Part shown: piece by piece, positions 1 through 62,300 of the stretch | Layout of the letters: every line of letters begins with the position of its first letter | Numbering within the stretch: the first letter of the stretch is position 1 | Source: Candidatus Peribacteria bacterium | GTDB taxonomy: Bacteria > Patescibacteriota > Gracilibacteria > Peribacterales > Peribacteraceae | Direction: 5' to 3' | Assembly (NCBI GenBank): GCA_041691135.1 | Contig: JBEPVF010000005.1 | Coordinates: 1-64,000 of the forward strand | DNA length: 64,000 nt | Notes under the pieces: model-generated | Database searches by the model: none | The model's input: only the letters and a program-made list of their open reading frames with translations | What the model was told of the DNA's origin: nothing | Translations under genes and position numbers: made by a program

Positions 1-30
1 GGAAGGTTGGTGCTGAGGAATACCTCAGAC
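1..30. repeat. Right end of a third, window-truncated copy of the long structured intergenic repeat
   Basis: ggaaggttggtg...acctcaga matches 27012-27040 (ggaaggttggtgtaagcaaacacctcaga), the right end of copy B. Confidence 0.7.
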
Positions 31-31
31 A

Positions 32-153
32 CCGCAGCCGGGGACGGCTGCTGCTACAGGTGAATGCTCAATAACAGCGGGTAGAAAACCCGCTCCCAAA
101 AGTAGGGATGAAGACAGAGAAGAGGACATAGATCGCACCAAGAGATGGCGCTC
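32..153. repeat. Cluster of three REP-like hairpins (type 1 at 32-57, type 2 at 77-98, degenerate type 3 at 134-153)
   Basis: 32-57 is identical to 6072-6097 and reads GTAG+hairpin on the minus strand. 77-98 is identical to 6003-6024. 134-153 resembles the RAYT-flanking repeat. Confidence 0.8.
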
Positions 154-5199: not shown

Positions 5200-5319
5200 G
5201 GAGTGCACCGTAGCAAACAGGCCATAGGGAAGCGATAGGCTTTTAGTATGACGCAATTCAAGTTGGACAGAGTGTCAATAATTTGACTAAAAGAATTAAA
5301 TTGATAGGCTCCGTGCATT

Positions 5320-5392
5320 GGCGCCGTAGTGTAGCGGTTAACACATCTGACTTTCGAGTCAGACATCGTGGGTTCGAATCCCACCGGCGTCC
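5320..5392 (+). tRNA. tRNA-Glu(UUC)-like gene with atypical 8-nt anticodon loop
   Basis: Cloverleaf: acceptor ggcgccg/cggcgtc, D stem gtgt/acac, anticodon stem tctga/tcaga with loop ctttcgag, T arm gtggg-ttcgaat-cccac. No encoded CCA. TTGACT/TAGGCT promoter at 5283-5310. Confidence 0.85.
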
Positions 5393-5480
5393 TAGGGCGC
5401 ACCATCTGGTGGTCATCTGAGAGTAGGAATCTCTCAGTTGATGAGGCAGCGTGTAGCACGCTGCTCCGCCCCTTTCCACT

Positions 5481-5519
5481 CCAGGCTCGTCGTTCAGTCG
5501 ACGAGCCTGGTATTTTTTT
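5481..5519 (+). terminator. Rho-independent terminator downstream of the tRNA
   Basis: 12-bp stem ccaggctcgtcg/cgacgagcctgg followed by a T tract. Confidence 0.85.
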
Positions 5520-5533
5520 ACAACAAATAGTTC

Positions 5534-5998
5534 AGCATATTGAAATTCTTCAGTATGGCGCTGCCGCTTTCTTCGCGGTTAGTGGAAGCTGGTCGATTCA
5601 TCGTTGGCGGGTGCTCCCTCACCCCGGCCCTCTCCCTCCTTCCCAGGCCGTAAAGGGAGTGGTGATCGTCTGCTCGTCCTTGAATAGTAAAGACCTGCCG
5701 GGAGAGGGAGGTGCGTGCTCTGTGTGTTTTATCCAATGAAGCTCTCTTAACTACTCCCAGGCGGCTGCAGCCGCCAAACCTCTTCGCACGTTCGCTATTC
5801 CATATAATGATCCCCTCCGACTATGTGGTGGGGATGAGTGGTTACGAGCCCTGCTGTCGCATGCCCACAGGCGCGACAGCAGGGCGAGGTGGGTCATAGG
5901 CGGTGCGCTTCTTTTTGGTTCTTTTTCTTGTCGCGGGGAGACAAGAAAAAGAACACCCTGAGCGATTGGAAAAGTTTGTGCCGGGGAATCACCCGAGC
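5534..5998. repeat. Long structured non-coding repeat, copy A
   Basis: Colinear with 26602-27040; exact shared blocks 5609-5645=26677-26713 (37 nt) and 5886-5939=26929-26982 (54 nt). Confidence 0.9.
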
Positions 5999-6002
5999 AT
6001 CC

Positions 6003-6097
6003 GCGGGTAGAAAACCCGCTCCCAATTTTGTCAGTAATCTAATAACAAAAAGACAATCAATACCTCAGAACCCGCAGCCGGGGACGGCTGCTGCTAC
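6003..6097. repeat. REP-like hairpins (type 2 at 6003-6024, type 1 at 6072-6097)
   Basis: Identical to 77-98 and 32-57 but in the opposite order. Confidence 0.85.
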
Positions 6098-6125
6098 GGG
6101 AAATAATGATTGAATTAGTCAGGAC

Positions 6126-7628
6126 TCAAAACGCCTCCGCCGACTGCACGATCCTCGCGCAATGATCGCACTTCTCGACCCGCTCACCGTCGATGACCAG
6201 CTCGATCAGATTGCCTTTTTTGCAGTACGGACAGGGCTTTCCCTGATTGAACGAGTGCACCGGCGAGAAGCCGATACGCTTGGGTGCGCCGCCGTGCTCA
6301 CGGATGGTGAGTGACCGCGGGTGGTCACGCATTTTCTGCAAGACTTTGGCTTCGATCTGACGGATACGTTCGCGAGTGACACCAAACTCTTTGCCCACTT
6401 CTTCGAGCGTGTGACCGATGCCGTCTTTAAGACCGAAACGCATTTCGATGATCTTGCGTTCACGCGGCGTAAGGAAGTCCAACATCGCATGCACGTTTTC
6501 TTTGCGCAGCTGACGGTTGGTCGCTTCGAACGGGTTCACCGCCTCTTCATCTTCAATAAAGTCGCCGAGCTTGCTGTCTTCTTCGGATCCCACCGGCGAT
6601 TCCAGCGAAATGATGTCCTGAGAAATTTTCTGGATGTGCGAGACTTTCTTGATATCCATCTCCATTTCGACGGACAGCTCTTCCAATGTCGGCTCGCGTC
6701 CAAGCTCCTGCACCAGACGACGCTGCGTGTGCGTCAGCTTGTTGATCGTCTCGACCATGTGCACCGGGATACGGATGGTGCGTGCCTGGTCGGCAATCGC
6801 GCGGGTAATCGCCTGACGAATCCACCACGTAGCATAGGTGCTGAATTTGAATCCACGCTCCGGATCGAATTTTTCGACTGCGCGGAACAGACCGATGTTT
6901 CCTTCCTGAATCAGATCGAGGAAGCTGAGTCCGCGACCGATGTACTTTTTGGCAATGGAAACGACAAGACGCAGGTTGGCTTCGGCCAGCTGCTGCTTGG
7001 CACCGGCATCGCCTTTGCGAATACGGCGAGCCAGTTCCACCTCTTTACGTGCATCGATGAGCGGCACACGGCCGATTTCGGACAAATACATGCGCACGGA
7101 GTCGTTCGAAATTTCGAGCAGGTCGATCTCGCGCTCGCGGCGGCGCTTCTTGCGTTCTTCGTCGCTCAAGTCTTTATCGCTGTCCACGGCAATACCCGCC
7201 ATGGCGATCATCTTCATCGCTTCATCATCCGTATCGCCATCCATCACTTCGACTTTCTCATCGTCTTCACTCTCGGCGGCCTCTAAATCGTCATCTGACG
7301 GACCATCTTCCTCGGTGGTGATTTCCGACAGGTCCTGCGACGGATCCGGTGTATCGATAACCGGCATTTTGCCCTTCTTGGCGCTCTTGTCCCAGATCAG
7401 TGCATCTTTCACATCGATCACCTGAATGCCGAGATCGACAAACAACGTGTAAATCTCGTCGAGCAATTCCACATCTTCTTCGGCATTCGGCACCGCTGCA
7501 ATAATCTCCTGATGCGTCACGTAGCGCTGCTCACGGCCTTTCTTGACCAAATGCTTCACCTTTTCGGGAAACTTCTTCAGATCGTCTTCGGTGGGTTGTG
7601 CGATGAATTTACGTGGATGAGAAGCCAT
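6126..7628 (-). CDS. rpoD: RNA polymerase primary sigma factor RpoD/SigA with C-terminal CxxC...CxxC extension
   Basis: [62 protein letters not shown]. Confidence 0.97.
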
Positions 7629-7860
7629 GGCAAATGAGTATACGGAAACCTGGGGCATTGCCCAAGTACGAATAGGGTACTAAAAACGCAGGAAACAAGA
7701 AAGAGGAAGTTCAAGATTCTTGCCGAGGACAGATTATAGCATAGATGACGAATAGACCCTATAAAAGTGACCATGTACAGGAGCGCAGTGACACTTCATG
7801 TGCCACGTATCATATGCCACATATTACGCGGTTTATGCTTTTCTCCCACTTGGTCACCTC

Positions 7861-26601: not shown

Positions 26602-27040
26602 AGCATTTGCAAAATTTTCAGTATGGCGCTGCCGCTTTCTGCGCGGTCGGTGGAAGCTGGTCGATTCATCGCTGAAGGGTGCTCCCTCACCCCGGCCCTC
26701 TCCCTCCTTCCCACGCCGCAAAGGGAGTTATGACAGTTCGCGCATTACTCAGCACCAGAAACCTGCCGGGAGAGGGAGCTGTGTGTTGTGTGTGTTGTGT
26801 CTAACGAAGCTCTCTCAAATAGTTCTAGGCGGCTACAGCCGCCGAGCCTCTTCGCCTGCTCGCTATTCCAGGTAATGACCCCCTCCGCCTATGTGGTGGA
26901 GATAGGTGGTTACGAACTGTGACACAGTGAGGTGGGTCATAGGCGGTGCGCTTCTTTTTGGTTCTTTTTCTTGTCGCGGGGAAACAAGAAAAAGAACACC
27001 AGTGGTGACTGGGAAGGTTGGTGTAAGCAAACACCTCAGA
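26602..27040. repeat. Long structured non-coding repeat, copy B
   Basis: Colinear with 5534-5998, same orientation. Confidence 0.9.
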
Positions 27041-27041
27041 G

Positions 27042-27063
27042 CCGCGCCAAAGCATGACGCTCT
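27042..27063. repeat. REP-like hairpin type 3 (the RAYT-flanking type)
   Basis: ccgcgccaaagcatgacgctct, one mismatch to 62262-62283. Confidence 0.85.
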
Positions 27064-61664: not shown

Positions 61665-61743
61665 TGTTCTATGGAGAGGGAGAACATACTTTTAGCTTTG
61701 GATCAGACAAAAGGGAGAGAGGAACAAATAATTTTTATAATTA

Positions 61744-62283
61744 AGAGCGCCATGCTTGGCGCGGATGGACGATAATAATTTCATGTCTCAACGCCATCCC
61801 GTCCAGAATGAGCGAATGATGTTAGTCACAACCAATACAAAAAACAGGGAGAAAATTTTCATCGATCCTGTCTATGCATATATAGCTTTGGAATCGATTT
61901 ACCGTACACAAGAACGGCAACCCTTCTTTCTCTATGGATTTGTAATTATGCCAGACCATTGTCATTTGCTTATCCGAGTACCTGAAGAAGGAGCTATTTC
62001 TCGAGTTATGTATGCATACAAAAGAAGTGTGTCATTCGAACTAGGAAAAGGTCCGATATGGCAACCACGATTCCATAGTAAAATCGCTGAAAATCCATCT
62101 GGAGCACTGCACTATATCCATTGGAATCCGGTAAAAGCTAAATTGTGTGAAATGCCAGAGAATTATCCTTGGTCATCGGCCTATGGAAAATGGGATGTGA
62201 TGGAATTGGAATGGATATATGGAATATAAGGCAAAAGAAAATTGTTCATTGTTGCCTACAACCGCGCCAAAGCATGGCGCTCT
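61744..62283. mobile_element. REPtron-like unit: RAYT gene bracketed by inverted REP copies
   Basis: agagcgccatgcttggcgcgg (61744-61764) and ccgcgccaaagcatggcgctct (62262-62283) are reverse complements apart from a 1-nt loop indel. Confidence 0.8.
61783..62229 (+). CDS. REP-associated tyrosine transposase (RAYT, IS200/Y1 HUH family)
   Basis: VTTNT..R..IF, FVIMPDHCH (HUH), IWQPRF, YIHWNPVKA, YPWSS. Confidence 0.92.
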   Translation: MSQRHPVQNERMMLVTTNTKNREKIFIDPVYAYIALESIYRTQERQPFFLYGFVIMPDHCHLLIRVPEEGAISRVMYAYKRSVSFELGKGPIWQPRFHSKIAENPSGALHYIHWNPVKAKLCEMPENYPWSSAYGKWDVMELEWIYGI

Positions 62284-62300
62284 CTAGGGTATTTTTATTA

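What the first reader, a model, noticed from the sequence alone, without database searches (positions are those of the whole stretch)
5534..5998. Dispersed ~450-nt structured non-coding element, three copies in 64 kb, with structure-preserving divergence
Seen: 5534-5998 and 26602-27040 are colinear intergenic copies with exact 37- and 54-nt blocks, and bases 1-30 match the right end, implying a third copy. No ORF is conserved, but helices are. ccgc/gcgg and ggcggct/agccgcc stems differ only in their loops. ccctctccc/gggagaggg encloses a diverged interior. atga(t/c)cc pairs with gggtcat via a G-U to G-C change. A 12-bp hairpin (ccctgctgtcgc/gcgacagcaggg) in A is replaced at the same position by ctgtg-a-cacag in B. 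A 14-15-bp terminal stem (gttctttttcttgt/acaagaaaaagaac, 5918-5954) is preceded by a near-duplicate of its 5' arm. I see no terminal inverted repeats or target duplications. Inference: selection acts on an RNA or ssDNA fold, so this is either an unrecognised large ncRNA family or a non-autonomous mobile element. I cannot match it to any family I know.
Basis: partly seen in the sequence, partly recalled or inferred. Interest (0 to 1): 0.82.

Follow-up and report, generated by a model that had tools for sequence, protein, structure and literature searches.

The report
Structured mosaic DNA repeat in Peribacteria
The ~450-base sequence is one of dozens of copies of a non-coding, hairpin-rich mosaic repeat, and its core is a folded element found in many copies across a whole family of tiny-genome (CPR) bacteria; it matches no catalogued RNA family and I found no paper on repeats in this group.

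Summary
Copies A (5534-5998) and B (26602-27040) are colinear, and the exact 54- and 37-nt blocks exist. They belong to a family with about 60 module clusters in this 1.74-Mb genome, including 25 copies of the most conserved module.

The unit is a mosaic. Lineage-specific 5' modules (M1, M2) precede a structured module (M3), which is followed by small REP hairpins. The same REP hairpins flank three RAYT transposase genes in this genome.

The 3' half of M3 (5814-5957) is the local form of a 100-190-nt element. My covariance model finds that element in 84 of 120 other genomes of the family, often at 20 or more copies. Its fold is strongly supported: 35 of 39 pairs show compensatory changes. Rfam holds no matching family.

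Three results point to a DNA-level, replication-linked repeat and away from an RNA gene:
- Pairing is almost purely Watson-Crick (G.T 11, A.C 7 of 1320 cells).
- Orientation follows GC skew (24 of 26 copies), while genes do not (53%).
- Copies recombine freely.

RAYT presence does not track the element across genomes, so the mobilising enzyme is unknown. An RNA role is not excluded. The scan has noted REP/BIME-like mosaics in many other genomes, but not this sequence.

The parts
5540..5606 (+). Module M1. Conserved boxes GGCGCTGYCGCTTTCT and GATTCATCG. Also occurs alone or before other bodies.
   Evidence: 33 BLAST hits in the genome. In the alignment of 33 copies RNAalifold finds only a weak 4-bp stem. 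M1-only copies show no strand bias: 4 of 13.
5607..5731 (+). Module M2. CCCTCACCCCGGCCCTCTCCC ... GGGAGAGGG arms around a diverged interior.
   Evidence: 19 hits. Arm pair 5614-5624/5700-5710. The 24-nt arm recurs exactly in other genera.
5746..5813 (+). Genus-specific 5' extension of M3, with the GGCGGC-loop-GCCGCC hairpin.
   Evidence: Part of model R1: 25 copies in this genome, 3 in sister genome G004, 0 in 120 other family genomes. The hairpin pairs never vary on both sides.
5814..5957 (+). Core: the local version of the family-wide structured element.
   Evidence: Global match to model R2, 56.5 bits, E 1.9e-14. R2 finds the element in 84 of 120 other family genomes. 35 of 39 pairs have compensatory changes.
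5817..5825 (+). 5' strand of closing helix P1' (CCGACTATG). It pairs with 5895-5903 (CATAGGCGG).
   Evidence: Model alignment. Most copies read CCGCCTATG, a perfect 9-bp match. The canonical form elsewhere is CCGCCGCCA/TGGCGGCGG. All 9 pairs change on both sides across the family.
5848..5885 (+). Hypervariable hairpin with a conserved top (GC-AAGCC-loop-GGC-GC). Equivalent to P4 of the canonical element.
   Evidence: 13-bp perfect arms. Among 22 copies there are at least 6 wholly different but complementary stems, and 11 of 16 pairs show double changes. One copy on contig 23 has arms from two different alleles.
5909..5954 (+). Pyrimidine tract Y1 (5909-5916) plus terminal hairpin (5918-5932 / 5940-5954, pyrimidine arm / purine arm). 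Y1 mirrors the 5' arm, which is compatible with a triple helix.
   Evidence: 15-bp arms, 100% complementary. The module is found by BLAST in 25 of 120 family genomes. Y1 fits the mirror better than the direct repeat in 15 variants against 2, with 6 ties and 6 symmetric.
6000..6024 (+). M4 hairpin (GCGGG-loop-CCCGC), REP-like.
   Evidence: 11 copies: 9 lie 14-58 nt 3' of an M3, 2 lie at contig ends. G004 keeps the hairpin with a compensatory change.
6072..6097 (+). REP1 hairpin. Reads GTAG + palindrome on the opposite strand.
   Evidence: 16 copies: 2 flank the RAYT gene on contig 1 in inverted orientation, 11 lie 15-88 nt 3' of an M3 in the same orientation, 3 lie at contig starts.
26602..27040 (+). 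Copy B (M1-M2-M3). Its hypervariable hairpin is shortened by an internal deletion.
   Evidence: The core matches R2 at 26882-27000, 54.9 bits.
27042..27063 (-). REP2 hairpin directly 3' of copy B.
   Evidence: 95% match to the hairpin that flanks the window's own RAYT gene.
1..98 (+). 3' end of a third copy cut by the contig start: M3 tail 1-30, REP1 31-57, M4-like hairpin 77-98.
61756..62229 (+). RAYT (REP-associated tyrosine transposase) gene. REP2 hairpins in inverted orientation flank it, at about 61741-61765 and at 62260-62286.
   Evidence: NCBIfam REP_Tyr_transpos 93 bits (cut-off 80). Matches E. coli TnpA-REP 4ER8, E 3.8e-9; I read an HxH motif and the tyrosine region off that alignment. 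Flanks.

Best explanation
The finding is one copy of a modular, non-coding intergenic DNA repeat.

Its conserved heart (5814-5957) is the local form of a 100-190-nt element that is multi-copy across this Peribacteria family. The fold has these parts:
- a closing helix;
- a G-rich joining strand;
- an optional inner domain with hypervariable hairpins;
- a 3' pyrimidine/purine hairpin, preceded by a pyrimidine tract that mirrors the 5' arm.

In this genus the core has gained a 5' extension. It is joined to other repeat modules (M1, M2) on its 5' side and to REP hairpins on its 3' side. Those REP hairpins belong to three resident RAYT transposase genes.

Inferred mechanism. The element acts as folded single-stranded DNA and not as RNA. 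It is exposed on one particular template strand at the replication fork, which would explain its strand bias. It is copied to new intergenic sites by an ssDNA-acting enzyme that I have not identified. Copies exchange segments by recombination. Hairpin arms stay complementary through DNA-level processes: selection on the fold, or template switching within quasi-palindromes.

Shown: multi-copy status, mosaicism, the fold, the strand bias, absence at two orthologous sites in sister species, and the REP-RAYT link.
Inferred: ssDNA as the active form, mobility itself, and its enzyme.
For: Copy number and mosaic nature:
- 65 matching places and 63 module clusters in the genome.
- 25 M3 cores.
- Contig depth 186-565 over the element against 16-18 in the immediate flanks.
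- Modules occur apart and in a fixed order.
- 593 of 1275 site pairs fail the four-gamete test, giving at least 17 recombination events. The failure rate is 24% for near pairs and 57% for far pairs.
- One copy has a chimeric hairpin.

Fold:
- 35 of 39 pairs have changes on both sides.
- 96.1% of cells are paired, against 43-53% when partners are slid.
- 0 of 500 shuffles reach the observed value (42 sequences).

DNA-like pairing: 1257 Watson-Crick cells, 11 G.T, 7 A.C and 45 other, of 1320. Wobble pairs are not enriched and neither strand is favoured.

Strand bias:
- The M3 '+' sense lies on the strand with negative local GC skew in 27 of 32 copies, and in 24 of 26 where |skew| >= 0.02 (binomial p 1e-5).
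- Only 523 of 990 ORFs have their sense strand on the G-rich strand.
- The direction is the same in three of four other genera, taken together 25 of 33 copies, or 13 of 17 at |skew| >= 0.02; the single G087 copy goes the other way.
- GC skew has the expected form in Peribacteria (PMC4736985, passages).

Not tied to genes: from the table I count the downstream gene co-oriented in 7 of 21 M3 copies.

Presence/absence: the orthologous spacers of sites A and B in sister species lack the element.

REP link: three RAYT genes pass the NCBIfam cut-off and each is flanked by inverted hairpins. Of the REP1/2/3 copies that do not flank those genes, 23 lie 13-139 nt 3' of an M3, 1 follows an M1, and 4 lie at contig ends.
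Against: - A multi-helix fold with conserved unpaired purine-rich strands and optional inner domains is what structured RNAs look like. Known ssDNA repeats (REPs, IS608 ends) are single hairpins.
- Canonical copies often have an AT-rich stretch resembling a -10 box 10-20 nt upstream. I saw this by eye and did not test it against chance.
- With a crude ORF caller the downstream gene is co-oriented in 13 of 18 metagenome copies.
- The strand bias would also arise if an RNA were transcribed from the opposite strand, co-directionally with replication.
- No transposition enzyme is tied to the core. Across 120 genomes both element and RAYT are present in 51, the element alone in 33, RAYT alone in 23, neither in 13 (hand tally). 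The element-only genomes include one with at least 22 copies.
- No clean empty site with exact ends was obtained, because the intergenic DNA of sister species is too diverged.
- The A6 alignment was fitted to the model, which leans pair counts towards the structure.
- Copies within a genome, and related genomes, are not independent, so the p-values overstate.
Confidence: 0.5

Rival explanations
1. The core is a gene for a structured non-coding RNA present in many copies per genome. The 3' U-rich strand, hairpin and A-rich arm would form a triple helix that protects the RNA's end. The mosaic flanks would be incidental.
For: - The four- to five-helix fold has 35 of 39 covarying pairs.
- The unpaired G-rich segments are conserved, and the inner domain is optional: minimal 100-nt forms exist.
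- The mirror-repeat third strand co-varies with the hairpin: 15 variants against 2.
- The element is kept across 60 of 84 genera.
- AT-rich stretches resembling -10 boxes lie upstream of canonical copies (by eye).
- The strand bias fits co-directional transcription if the opposite strand is the sense strand.
Against: - G.T cells are 11 of 1320 and A.C cells 7, so there is no wobble signature on either strand.
- In this genome there is no promoter-like site inside or just before the element and no terminator-like site after it.
- From the table, orientation relative to neighbouring genes looks random: 7 of 21 co-oriented.
- Copies are recombinant mosaics joined to REP hairpins.
- Twenty or more gene copies of one RNA in a 1.2-Mb genome would be unusual.
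- No Rfam family matches.
Confidence: 0.28
2. In this genus the composite M3-REP unit is a long REPIN-like passenger, copied by the resident RAYT transposases through its 3' REP hairpin. This would be the cause of the local expansion.
For: - There are three RAYT genes with cognate flanking hairpins.
- Apart from the copies that flank the RAYT genes, every REP1/2/3 copy sits at the 3' end of an M3 or M1 module or at a contig end, always in the same relative orientation.
- The GTAG-headed strand lies on the G-rich strand, the presumed lagging-strand template, in 24 of 26 copies.
- Copies share the 3' end and differ in how far they extend 5'.
- G004 also shows M3 followed by REP-like hairpins.
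Against: - Element and RAYT presence are unrelated across 120 genomes: 51/33/23/13, odds ratio about 0.9. High-copy genomes without any RAYT candidate exist.
- REPs here are single, not inverted pairs, so the REPIN/BIME layout is not met.
- Three REP types on one M3 family fit equally well with REPs inserting next to M3, or with module shuffling.
- Nothing here tests RAYT activity on these sequences.
Confidence: 0.15
3. The copies are decayed fragments of a protein gene, or they encode a small conserved peptide.
For: The reverse strand of M1 carries a short ORF (MNRPASTNREESGSA...). About two-thirds of the 33 copies keep its frame through the ESGSA box, by my reading. Some third-position differences between copies would be synonymous.
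Against: - The frame is shifted in roughly a third of M1 copies, while the same nucleotides stay conserved.
- None of 5 ORFs over the element has a Pfam match.
- M3 shows no codon periodicity: 40, 44, 39 variable columns by phase.
- Indels between copies are not multiples of three.
Confidence: 0.03

Closest known systems
REP / BIME / REPIN elements with RAYT (TnpA-REP) transposases of E. coli, Pseudomonas and Stenotrophomonas (PMC3333891 and PMC8266576, passages read; PMC3116915, search listing only)
   Same: Intergenic, multi-copy, hairpin-forming and mosaic. The resident RAYT genes are flanked by the same hairpins in inverted orientation (a REPtron layout). REP1 has a GTAG head. No terminal inverted repeats.
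   Different: The REPs here are single 3' appendages of a 240-nt structured module, not inverted pairs. The conserved core is a multi-helix fold of 100-190 nt, far larger than a 20-50-nt REP. It occurs in many genomes without any RAYT.
IS200/IS605-family insertion sequences and their gene-less derivatives (palindrome-associated elements). The mechanism is as summarised in PMC3333891 (passages); the derivatives are recalled.
   Same: No terminal inverted repeats, structured ends, and orientation biased with respect to replication, as expected for transposition through single-stranded DNA on the lagging-strand template.
   Different: The genome's single canonical IS200-type transposase gene has its own, unrelated end hairpins. 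It shares no repeat with the element. No TnpB was found. No target-site rule could be established.
BOX elements of Streptococcus pneumoniae (boxA-boxB-boxC modules). Recalled, not from a call.
   Same: Ordered modules that can be present or absent, a stable predicted structure, and no known transposase.
   Different: No sequence relation. BOX is confined to one genus, and I know of no report of replication-strand bias or of a covarying multi-helix core.
Multi-copy structured RNAs of mobile elements (HEARO/IscB omega RNA, TnpB omega RNA, IS110 bridge RNA), and ENE-type 3' triple helices. Recalled; only Rfam membership was tested.
   Same: Size, multi-helix fold with variable stems, many copies per genome. 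A U-rich strand plus an A/U hairpin could form a triple helix.
   Different: No Rfam match. There is no adjacent nuclease or recombinase gene in this genome. No wobble pairs. Transcription could not be tested.

Membership tests
REPtron (RAYT gene with its REPs) | Y1 HUH transposase of the RAYT clade | tested here: met
   Three genes score 93, 86.3 and 96.9 bits against NCBIfam REP_Tyr_transpos, cut-off 80. The window's copy aligns to E. coli TnpA-REP 4ER8, E 3.8e-9; I read an HxH motif and the tyrosine region off that alignment.
REPtron (RAYT gene with its REPs) | The gene is flanked by copies of the dispersed palindrome in inverted orientation | tested here: met
   All three RAYT genes have the same hairpin on both sides in opposite orientation. 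The same hairpins recur at element ends.
REP sequence | A 20-50-nt palindrome preceded by a conserved tetranucleotide, usually GTAG (PMC8266576, passage) | tested here: inconclusive
   REP1 reads GTAG + palindrome. REP2 and REP3 have TAGAG/CAGAG-type heads instead. The M1-M3 modules themselves are not REPs.
BIME / REPIN | Two REPs in inverted orientation separated by a linker | tested here: not met
   Away from the RAYT genes, REPs occur singly or in tandem with the same polarity, 3' of M3. One search finds no REP-sized inverted pair spanning the element.
MITE | Terminal inverted repeats and target-site duplications | tested here: not met
   Only internal hairpins were found. I saw no shared flanking duplication in 33 aligned left ends. 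Duplications were not searched for systematically.
IS200/IS605-derived element | Ends related to those of a resident Y1-transposase insertion sequence | tested here: not met
   The hairpins flanking the canonical transposase gene on contig 8 are unrelated, and that locus shares no repeat with the family.
IS200/IS605-like ssDNA mobility | Orientation bias relative to replication direction | tested here: met
   24 of 26 copies here and 13 of 17 in other genera at |GC skew| >= 0.02. Skew is only a proxy, because no origin was mapped.
Any Rfam 15 family | Score at or above the family's gathering threshold | tested here: not met
   Only tRNAs in the window. Nothing near threshold on 5300-6130 at E <= 10. 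Across 12 metagenome loci only tmRNA, tRNA and a SAM riboswitch were found, all elsewhere in those loci.
Structured non-coding RNA (generic) | Covariation that preserves helices | tested here: met
   35 of 39 pairs, 0 of 500 shuffles. This also holds for folded DNA.
Structured non-coding RNA (generic) | G.U wobble pairs enriched over A.C on the transcribed strand | tested here: not met
   G.T 11 against A.C 7, of 1320 cells.
Structured non-coding RNA (generic) | A discrete transcript | not testable with these tools
   Only one DNA run holds the sequence.

The most novel reading that the evidence does not exclude
The core would be a new class of structured nucleic-acid element of CPR bacteria. 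It is a covarying multi-helix fold ending in an intramolecular triple helix, kept in tens of copies per 1-Mb genome across most genera of a family, and oriented with replication. Two functions would fit. It could be a dispersed single-strand signal that works on the lagging-strand template, for priming, restart or fork pausing. Or it could be a new large RNA with a triple-helix 3' end. In either case the REP/RAYT systems of this genus would have latched onto it secondarily.
Probability: 0.2. Interest if true: 0.85.

Novelty: new variant of a known kind. Interest (0 to 1): 0.6.

Why it matters
CPR bacteria are thought of as streamlined. Yet here most genera of one family (60 of 84 sampled) carry up to 20 or more copies of a complex folded element that no catalogue lists.

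If it is selfish DNA, it extends REP-like biology in three ways. It reaches CPR. Its fold is far more elaborate than a hairpin. And a conserved structured module appears coupled to RAYT-linked REPs.

If it is functional, either as RNA or as a replication-linked single-strand signal, it is a new structural class with a testable triple-helix motif.

In practice it breaks assemblies: at least 12 contig ends in this genome end inside a module. It also spawns spurious ORFs, and annotators should mask it.

Tried and rejected
- RNA evidence. Laying that run (contigs only) gave depth but no empty-site joint.
- Empty sites. At site A, sister genome G004 has a ~50-nt spacer with neither the tRNA nor the element. 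G002 and G003 carry unrelated inserts there. At site B, G001 and G004 lack the element but carry other repeats. The flanks are too diverged to fix exact ends or duplications.
- RAYT as the general driver. This was my leading idea until searches showed no association across 120 genomes.
- TnpB or a retroelement partner. No TnpB domain was found.
- Multi-copy insertion sequence. The long self-repeats I inspected lie within or between protein-coding genes.
- Leader or riboswitch reading. Rejected for this genome, where the downstream gene is co-oriented in 7 of 21 copies (my count). It stays open for canonical copies (13 of 18, crude caller). The neighbourhoods of copies in five other genomes showed no shared gene.
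- M1 as a structured unit. RNAalifold finds only a 4-bp stem.
- M1 pattern in 185,579 species genomes. Two stretches matched. One is a Peribacteria MAG. The other is a probable chance match inside coding sequence of a Poribacteria MAG.
- Phage or plasmid carriage. The terminal-module pattern found 0 viral contigs.
- Variable stem arms elsewhere in the genome. Apart from three isolated 12-mer matches, they occur only inside M3 copies.
- Literature. One full-text search combined Peregrinibacteria/Peribacteria with REP, MITE, intergenic repeat and IS200. No listed paper combined a Peribacteria term with a repeat term. The Peribacteria genome paper has no occurrence of 'transpos', 'palindrom' or 'intergenic'. 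Supplementary files were not consulted.

Full report
**What is there**

A (5534-5998) and B (26602-27040) align end to end, with E 1.3e-108. They share exact blocks of 54, 37, 24 and 22 nt at the stated places. Window 1-30 is the tail of a third copy cut by the contig start, followed by the same downstream hairpins.

The family is much larger than three copies. The 1.74-Mb genome (35 contigs) has 65 matching places. These fall into 63 clusters of modules. In the one public DNA run that holds the region, summed contig depth is 186-565 over the element against 16-18 in the immediate flanks. At least 12 contig ends end inside a module.

**Anatomy in this genome**

The '450-nt element' is a mosaic of modules in a fixed order and orientation. 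The modules also occur apart:
- M1 (5540-5606, 33 hits)
- M2 (5607-5731, 19 hits)
- M3 (5746-5984, about 30 hits)
- M4 (hairpin at 6000-6024, 11 hits)
- M5 (hairpin at 6072-6097, 16 hits)

In other copies M1 is followed by different bodies. M3 can be preceded by a different 5' module.

All copies lie between ORFs, in either orientation relative to neighbouring genes.

Nothing suggests coding:
- None of 5 ORF translations has a Pfam match.
- Variable columns of M3 are spread evenly over the three phases (40, 44, 39).
- A short ORF on the reverse strand of M1 is frameshifted in roughly a third of copies, while the nucleotides stay conserved.

There are no terminal inverted repeats. No promoter-like or terminator-like site stands out, apart from the terminator of the upstream tRNA.

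**The REP/RAYT link**

The genome has four Y1-transposase genes. One is a canonical IS200-type gene. Three pass NCBI's cut-off for REP-associated tyrosine transposases, and one of these lies in the window at 61756-62229. Each of the three is flanked by its own hairpin in inverted orientation.

Those hairpins are the 3' modules of the element:
- REP1 (= M5) has 16 copies. Two flank its RAYT gene, 11 lie 15-88 nt 3' of an M3, and 3 lie at contig starts.
- REP2 and REP3 have 18 copies. Six flank their RAYT genes, 12 lie 13-139 nt 3' of an M3, one follows an M1, and one lies at a contig end next to an M4. By one search's 200-nt test five of the six have no M module nearby; the sixth, C9:19678, is the one that follows an M1, so the true split is 5 flanking (the upstream REP2 of the window's gene was placed by eye), 12 after M3, 1 after M1.

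So REPs here never stand alone. They are also never arranged as the inverted pairs that define BIMEs and REPINs.

**The conserved core**

A covariance model of the 5' part of M3 (R1) finds 25 copies here and 3 in sister genome G004. It finds none in three other genomes of the genus, and none in 120 other genomes of the family.

The 3' terminal module is older. BLAST finds it in 25 of 120 family genomes. A pattern scan found it on 27 metagenome contigs, and 21 of these carry the full element. It was found on no viral contig.

Aligning these copies revealed a canonical 170-190-nt element, with minimal 100-nt forms. A model built from 19 of them (R2) matches window 5814-5957 globally at E 1.9e-14. 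It matches 84 of 120 other family genomes, in 60 of 84 genera. Up to 22 matches were scored per genome, which is the cap.

The fold has these parts:
- a 9-bp closing helix. In other genera it reads CCGCCGCCA/TGGCGGCGG or CCGCGCGCCA/TGGCGCGCGG. In this genome it reads CCGCCTATG/CATAGGCGG;
- a G-rich joining strand;
- an optional domain of a 6-bp helix enclosing two hairpins, one of them hypervariable under a conserved loop;
- a second purine-rich strand;
- a 3' hairpin with a pyrimidine arm and a purine arm.

On 42 sequences, 35 of 39 pairs change on both sides. 96.1% of cells pair, against 43-53% with slid partners. No shuffle in 500 reaches the observed values. The alignment was fitted to the model and the sequences are related, so these figures lean towards the structure. 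The many distinct pair types per position are nonetheless hard to explain otherwise.

Within this genome alone, 22 M3 copies carry at least six wholly different but complementary stems in the hypervariable hairpin.

Rfam 15 has no matching family.

**A mirror repeat**

It is the mirror image of that arm. Among distinct variants it fits the mirror better than the direct repeat in 15 cases and worse in 2. Six are ties and six are symmetric tracts. That is the arrangement needed for the tract to lie parallel to the purine arm as the third strand of a triple helix. This is an inference and nothing here tests it.

**RNA or DNA?**

Three results favour a DNA-level element.

First, pairing is almost purely Watson-Crick: 1257 cells, with 11 G.T, 7 A.C and 45 other. 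Structured RNAs normally show many G.U pairs on one strand. I state that from general knowledge.

Second, orientation follows replication and not transcription.
- The M3 '+' sense sits on the strand with negative local GC skew in 27 of 32 copies, and in 24 of 26 where |skew| >= 0.02.
- ORFs show no such bias (523 of 990). M1-only copies show none either (4 of 13).
- The direction is the same in three of four other genera sampled, taken together 25 of 33 copies, or 13 of 17; the one copy in G087 goes the other way.
- GC skew behaves as expected in Peribacteria (PMC4736985, passages).
- IS200/IS605 elements act preferentially on the lagging-strand template (PMC3333891, passages).
- With the usual reading of skew, the strand carrying GTAG-REP1 is the lagging-strand template.

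Third, copies are recombinant mosaics. 593 of 1275 site pairs fail the four-gamete test, which implies at least 17 recombination events. One copy has hairpin arms from two different alleles.

Against this, a multi-helix fold with conserved unpaired strands and optional domains is typical of RNA. AT-rich stretches resembling -10 boxes lie upstream of canonical copies (by eye). The strand bias would also follow from co-directional transcription of the opposite strand. No RNA data could be examined.

**Who moves it?**

I first took the RAYTs for the drivers. Across the same 120 genomes, however, RAYT genes are present in 74 and the element in 84, and the two are unrelated. My hand tally gives both in 51, the element only in 33, RAYT only in 23, and neither in 13. 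One genome that is 99% complete has at least 22 copies and no RAYT candidate at all.

RAYT may still explain the REP-tagged form in this genus, but it cannot explain the core. No TnpB was found. The canonical IS200-type gene has unrelated ends.

Orthologous spacers in sister species lack the element. Exact ends and target sites could not be fixed.

**Verdict**

The best reading (0.5) is a modular intergenic DNA repeat. Its core is a family-wide, replication-oriented element that folds as single-stranded DNA and whose enzyme is unknown. In this genus it is coupled to RAYT-linked REPs.

The main rival (0.28) is a new multi-copy structured RNA.

Mosaic REP/BIME-like repeats have been noted many times in this scan in other genomes, including one in another CPR lineage. 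A look-up with this M3 sequence found no look-alike stretch in the scan's earlier notes.

What sets this case apart is the size and strength of the covarying fold, the mirror-repeat 3' module, the breadth across a CPR family, and the strand bias.

Noticed in passing
window 6126-7658 (- strand): The sigma-70 (RpoD-like) ORF of 510 aa ends in an extra C-terminal segment with two Cys pairs (CPYC ... CDHC), like a zinc ribbon fused to the sigma factor. The DNA of this tail is conserved in sister genomes, where the alignments reach the gene's end.
   Followed up: no
window 5540-5606, reverse strand, and 32 other M1 copies: There is a short ORF (about 21-30 aa, MNRPASTNREESGSA...) starting at the conserved ATGAATCG box. 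About two-thirds of the copies keep its frame and the rest are shifted. It is probably not coding, but a micro-peptide is not excluded.
   Followed up: partly
window 5614-5637 and other genomes of the family: The M2 arm CTCACCCCGGCCCTCTCCCTCC recurs letter for letter (22-25 nt) in several other genera that lack the rest of the element. It seems to be a separate, widely shared repeat arm.
   Followed up: no
genome contig 8, 10387-13331: A canonical IS200-type transposase gene with its own end hairpins lies about 1.9 kb downstream of a reverse-transcriptase gene.
   Followed up: partly
window 5393-5520: Between the tRNA (5320-5392) and its terminator (5481-5510) lie two further small hairpins. 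One of them has GTAG in its loop (gcagcgtg-tag-cacgctgc). In sister genome G004 the whole tRNA-plus-repeat block is missing from this spacer.
   Followed up: partly
L048 (G001, orthologue of site B) and L043 (G002, site A): Sister genomes carry other short GC-rich repeats in the same spacers (GGCTCGCTGCGGCTCGCACCTCACCATGAC-like units). Intergenic turnover of unrelated repeat families seems to be the rule in this genus.
   Followed up: no
L143 (metagenome) and L117 (G059): In two records the canonical element ends about 25 nt before a co-oriented ORF that begins MTKATFAAGCFWGVE. I take this for a methionine sulfoxide reductase start, from memory and without a test.
   Followed up: no
genome contig 6 (83 kb, GC 56%): This contig carries its own dense family of 50-160-nt repeats with up to 17 other copies each. 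Its GC content is higher than that of the main contigs. It may be a different repeat system, or contamination.
   Followed up: no
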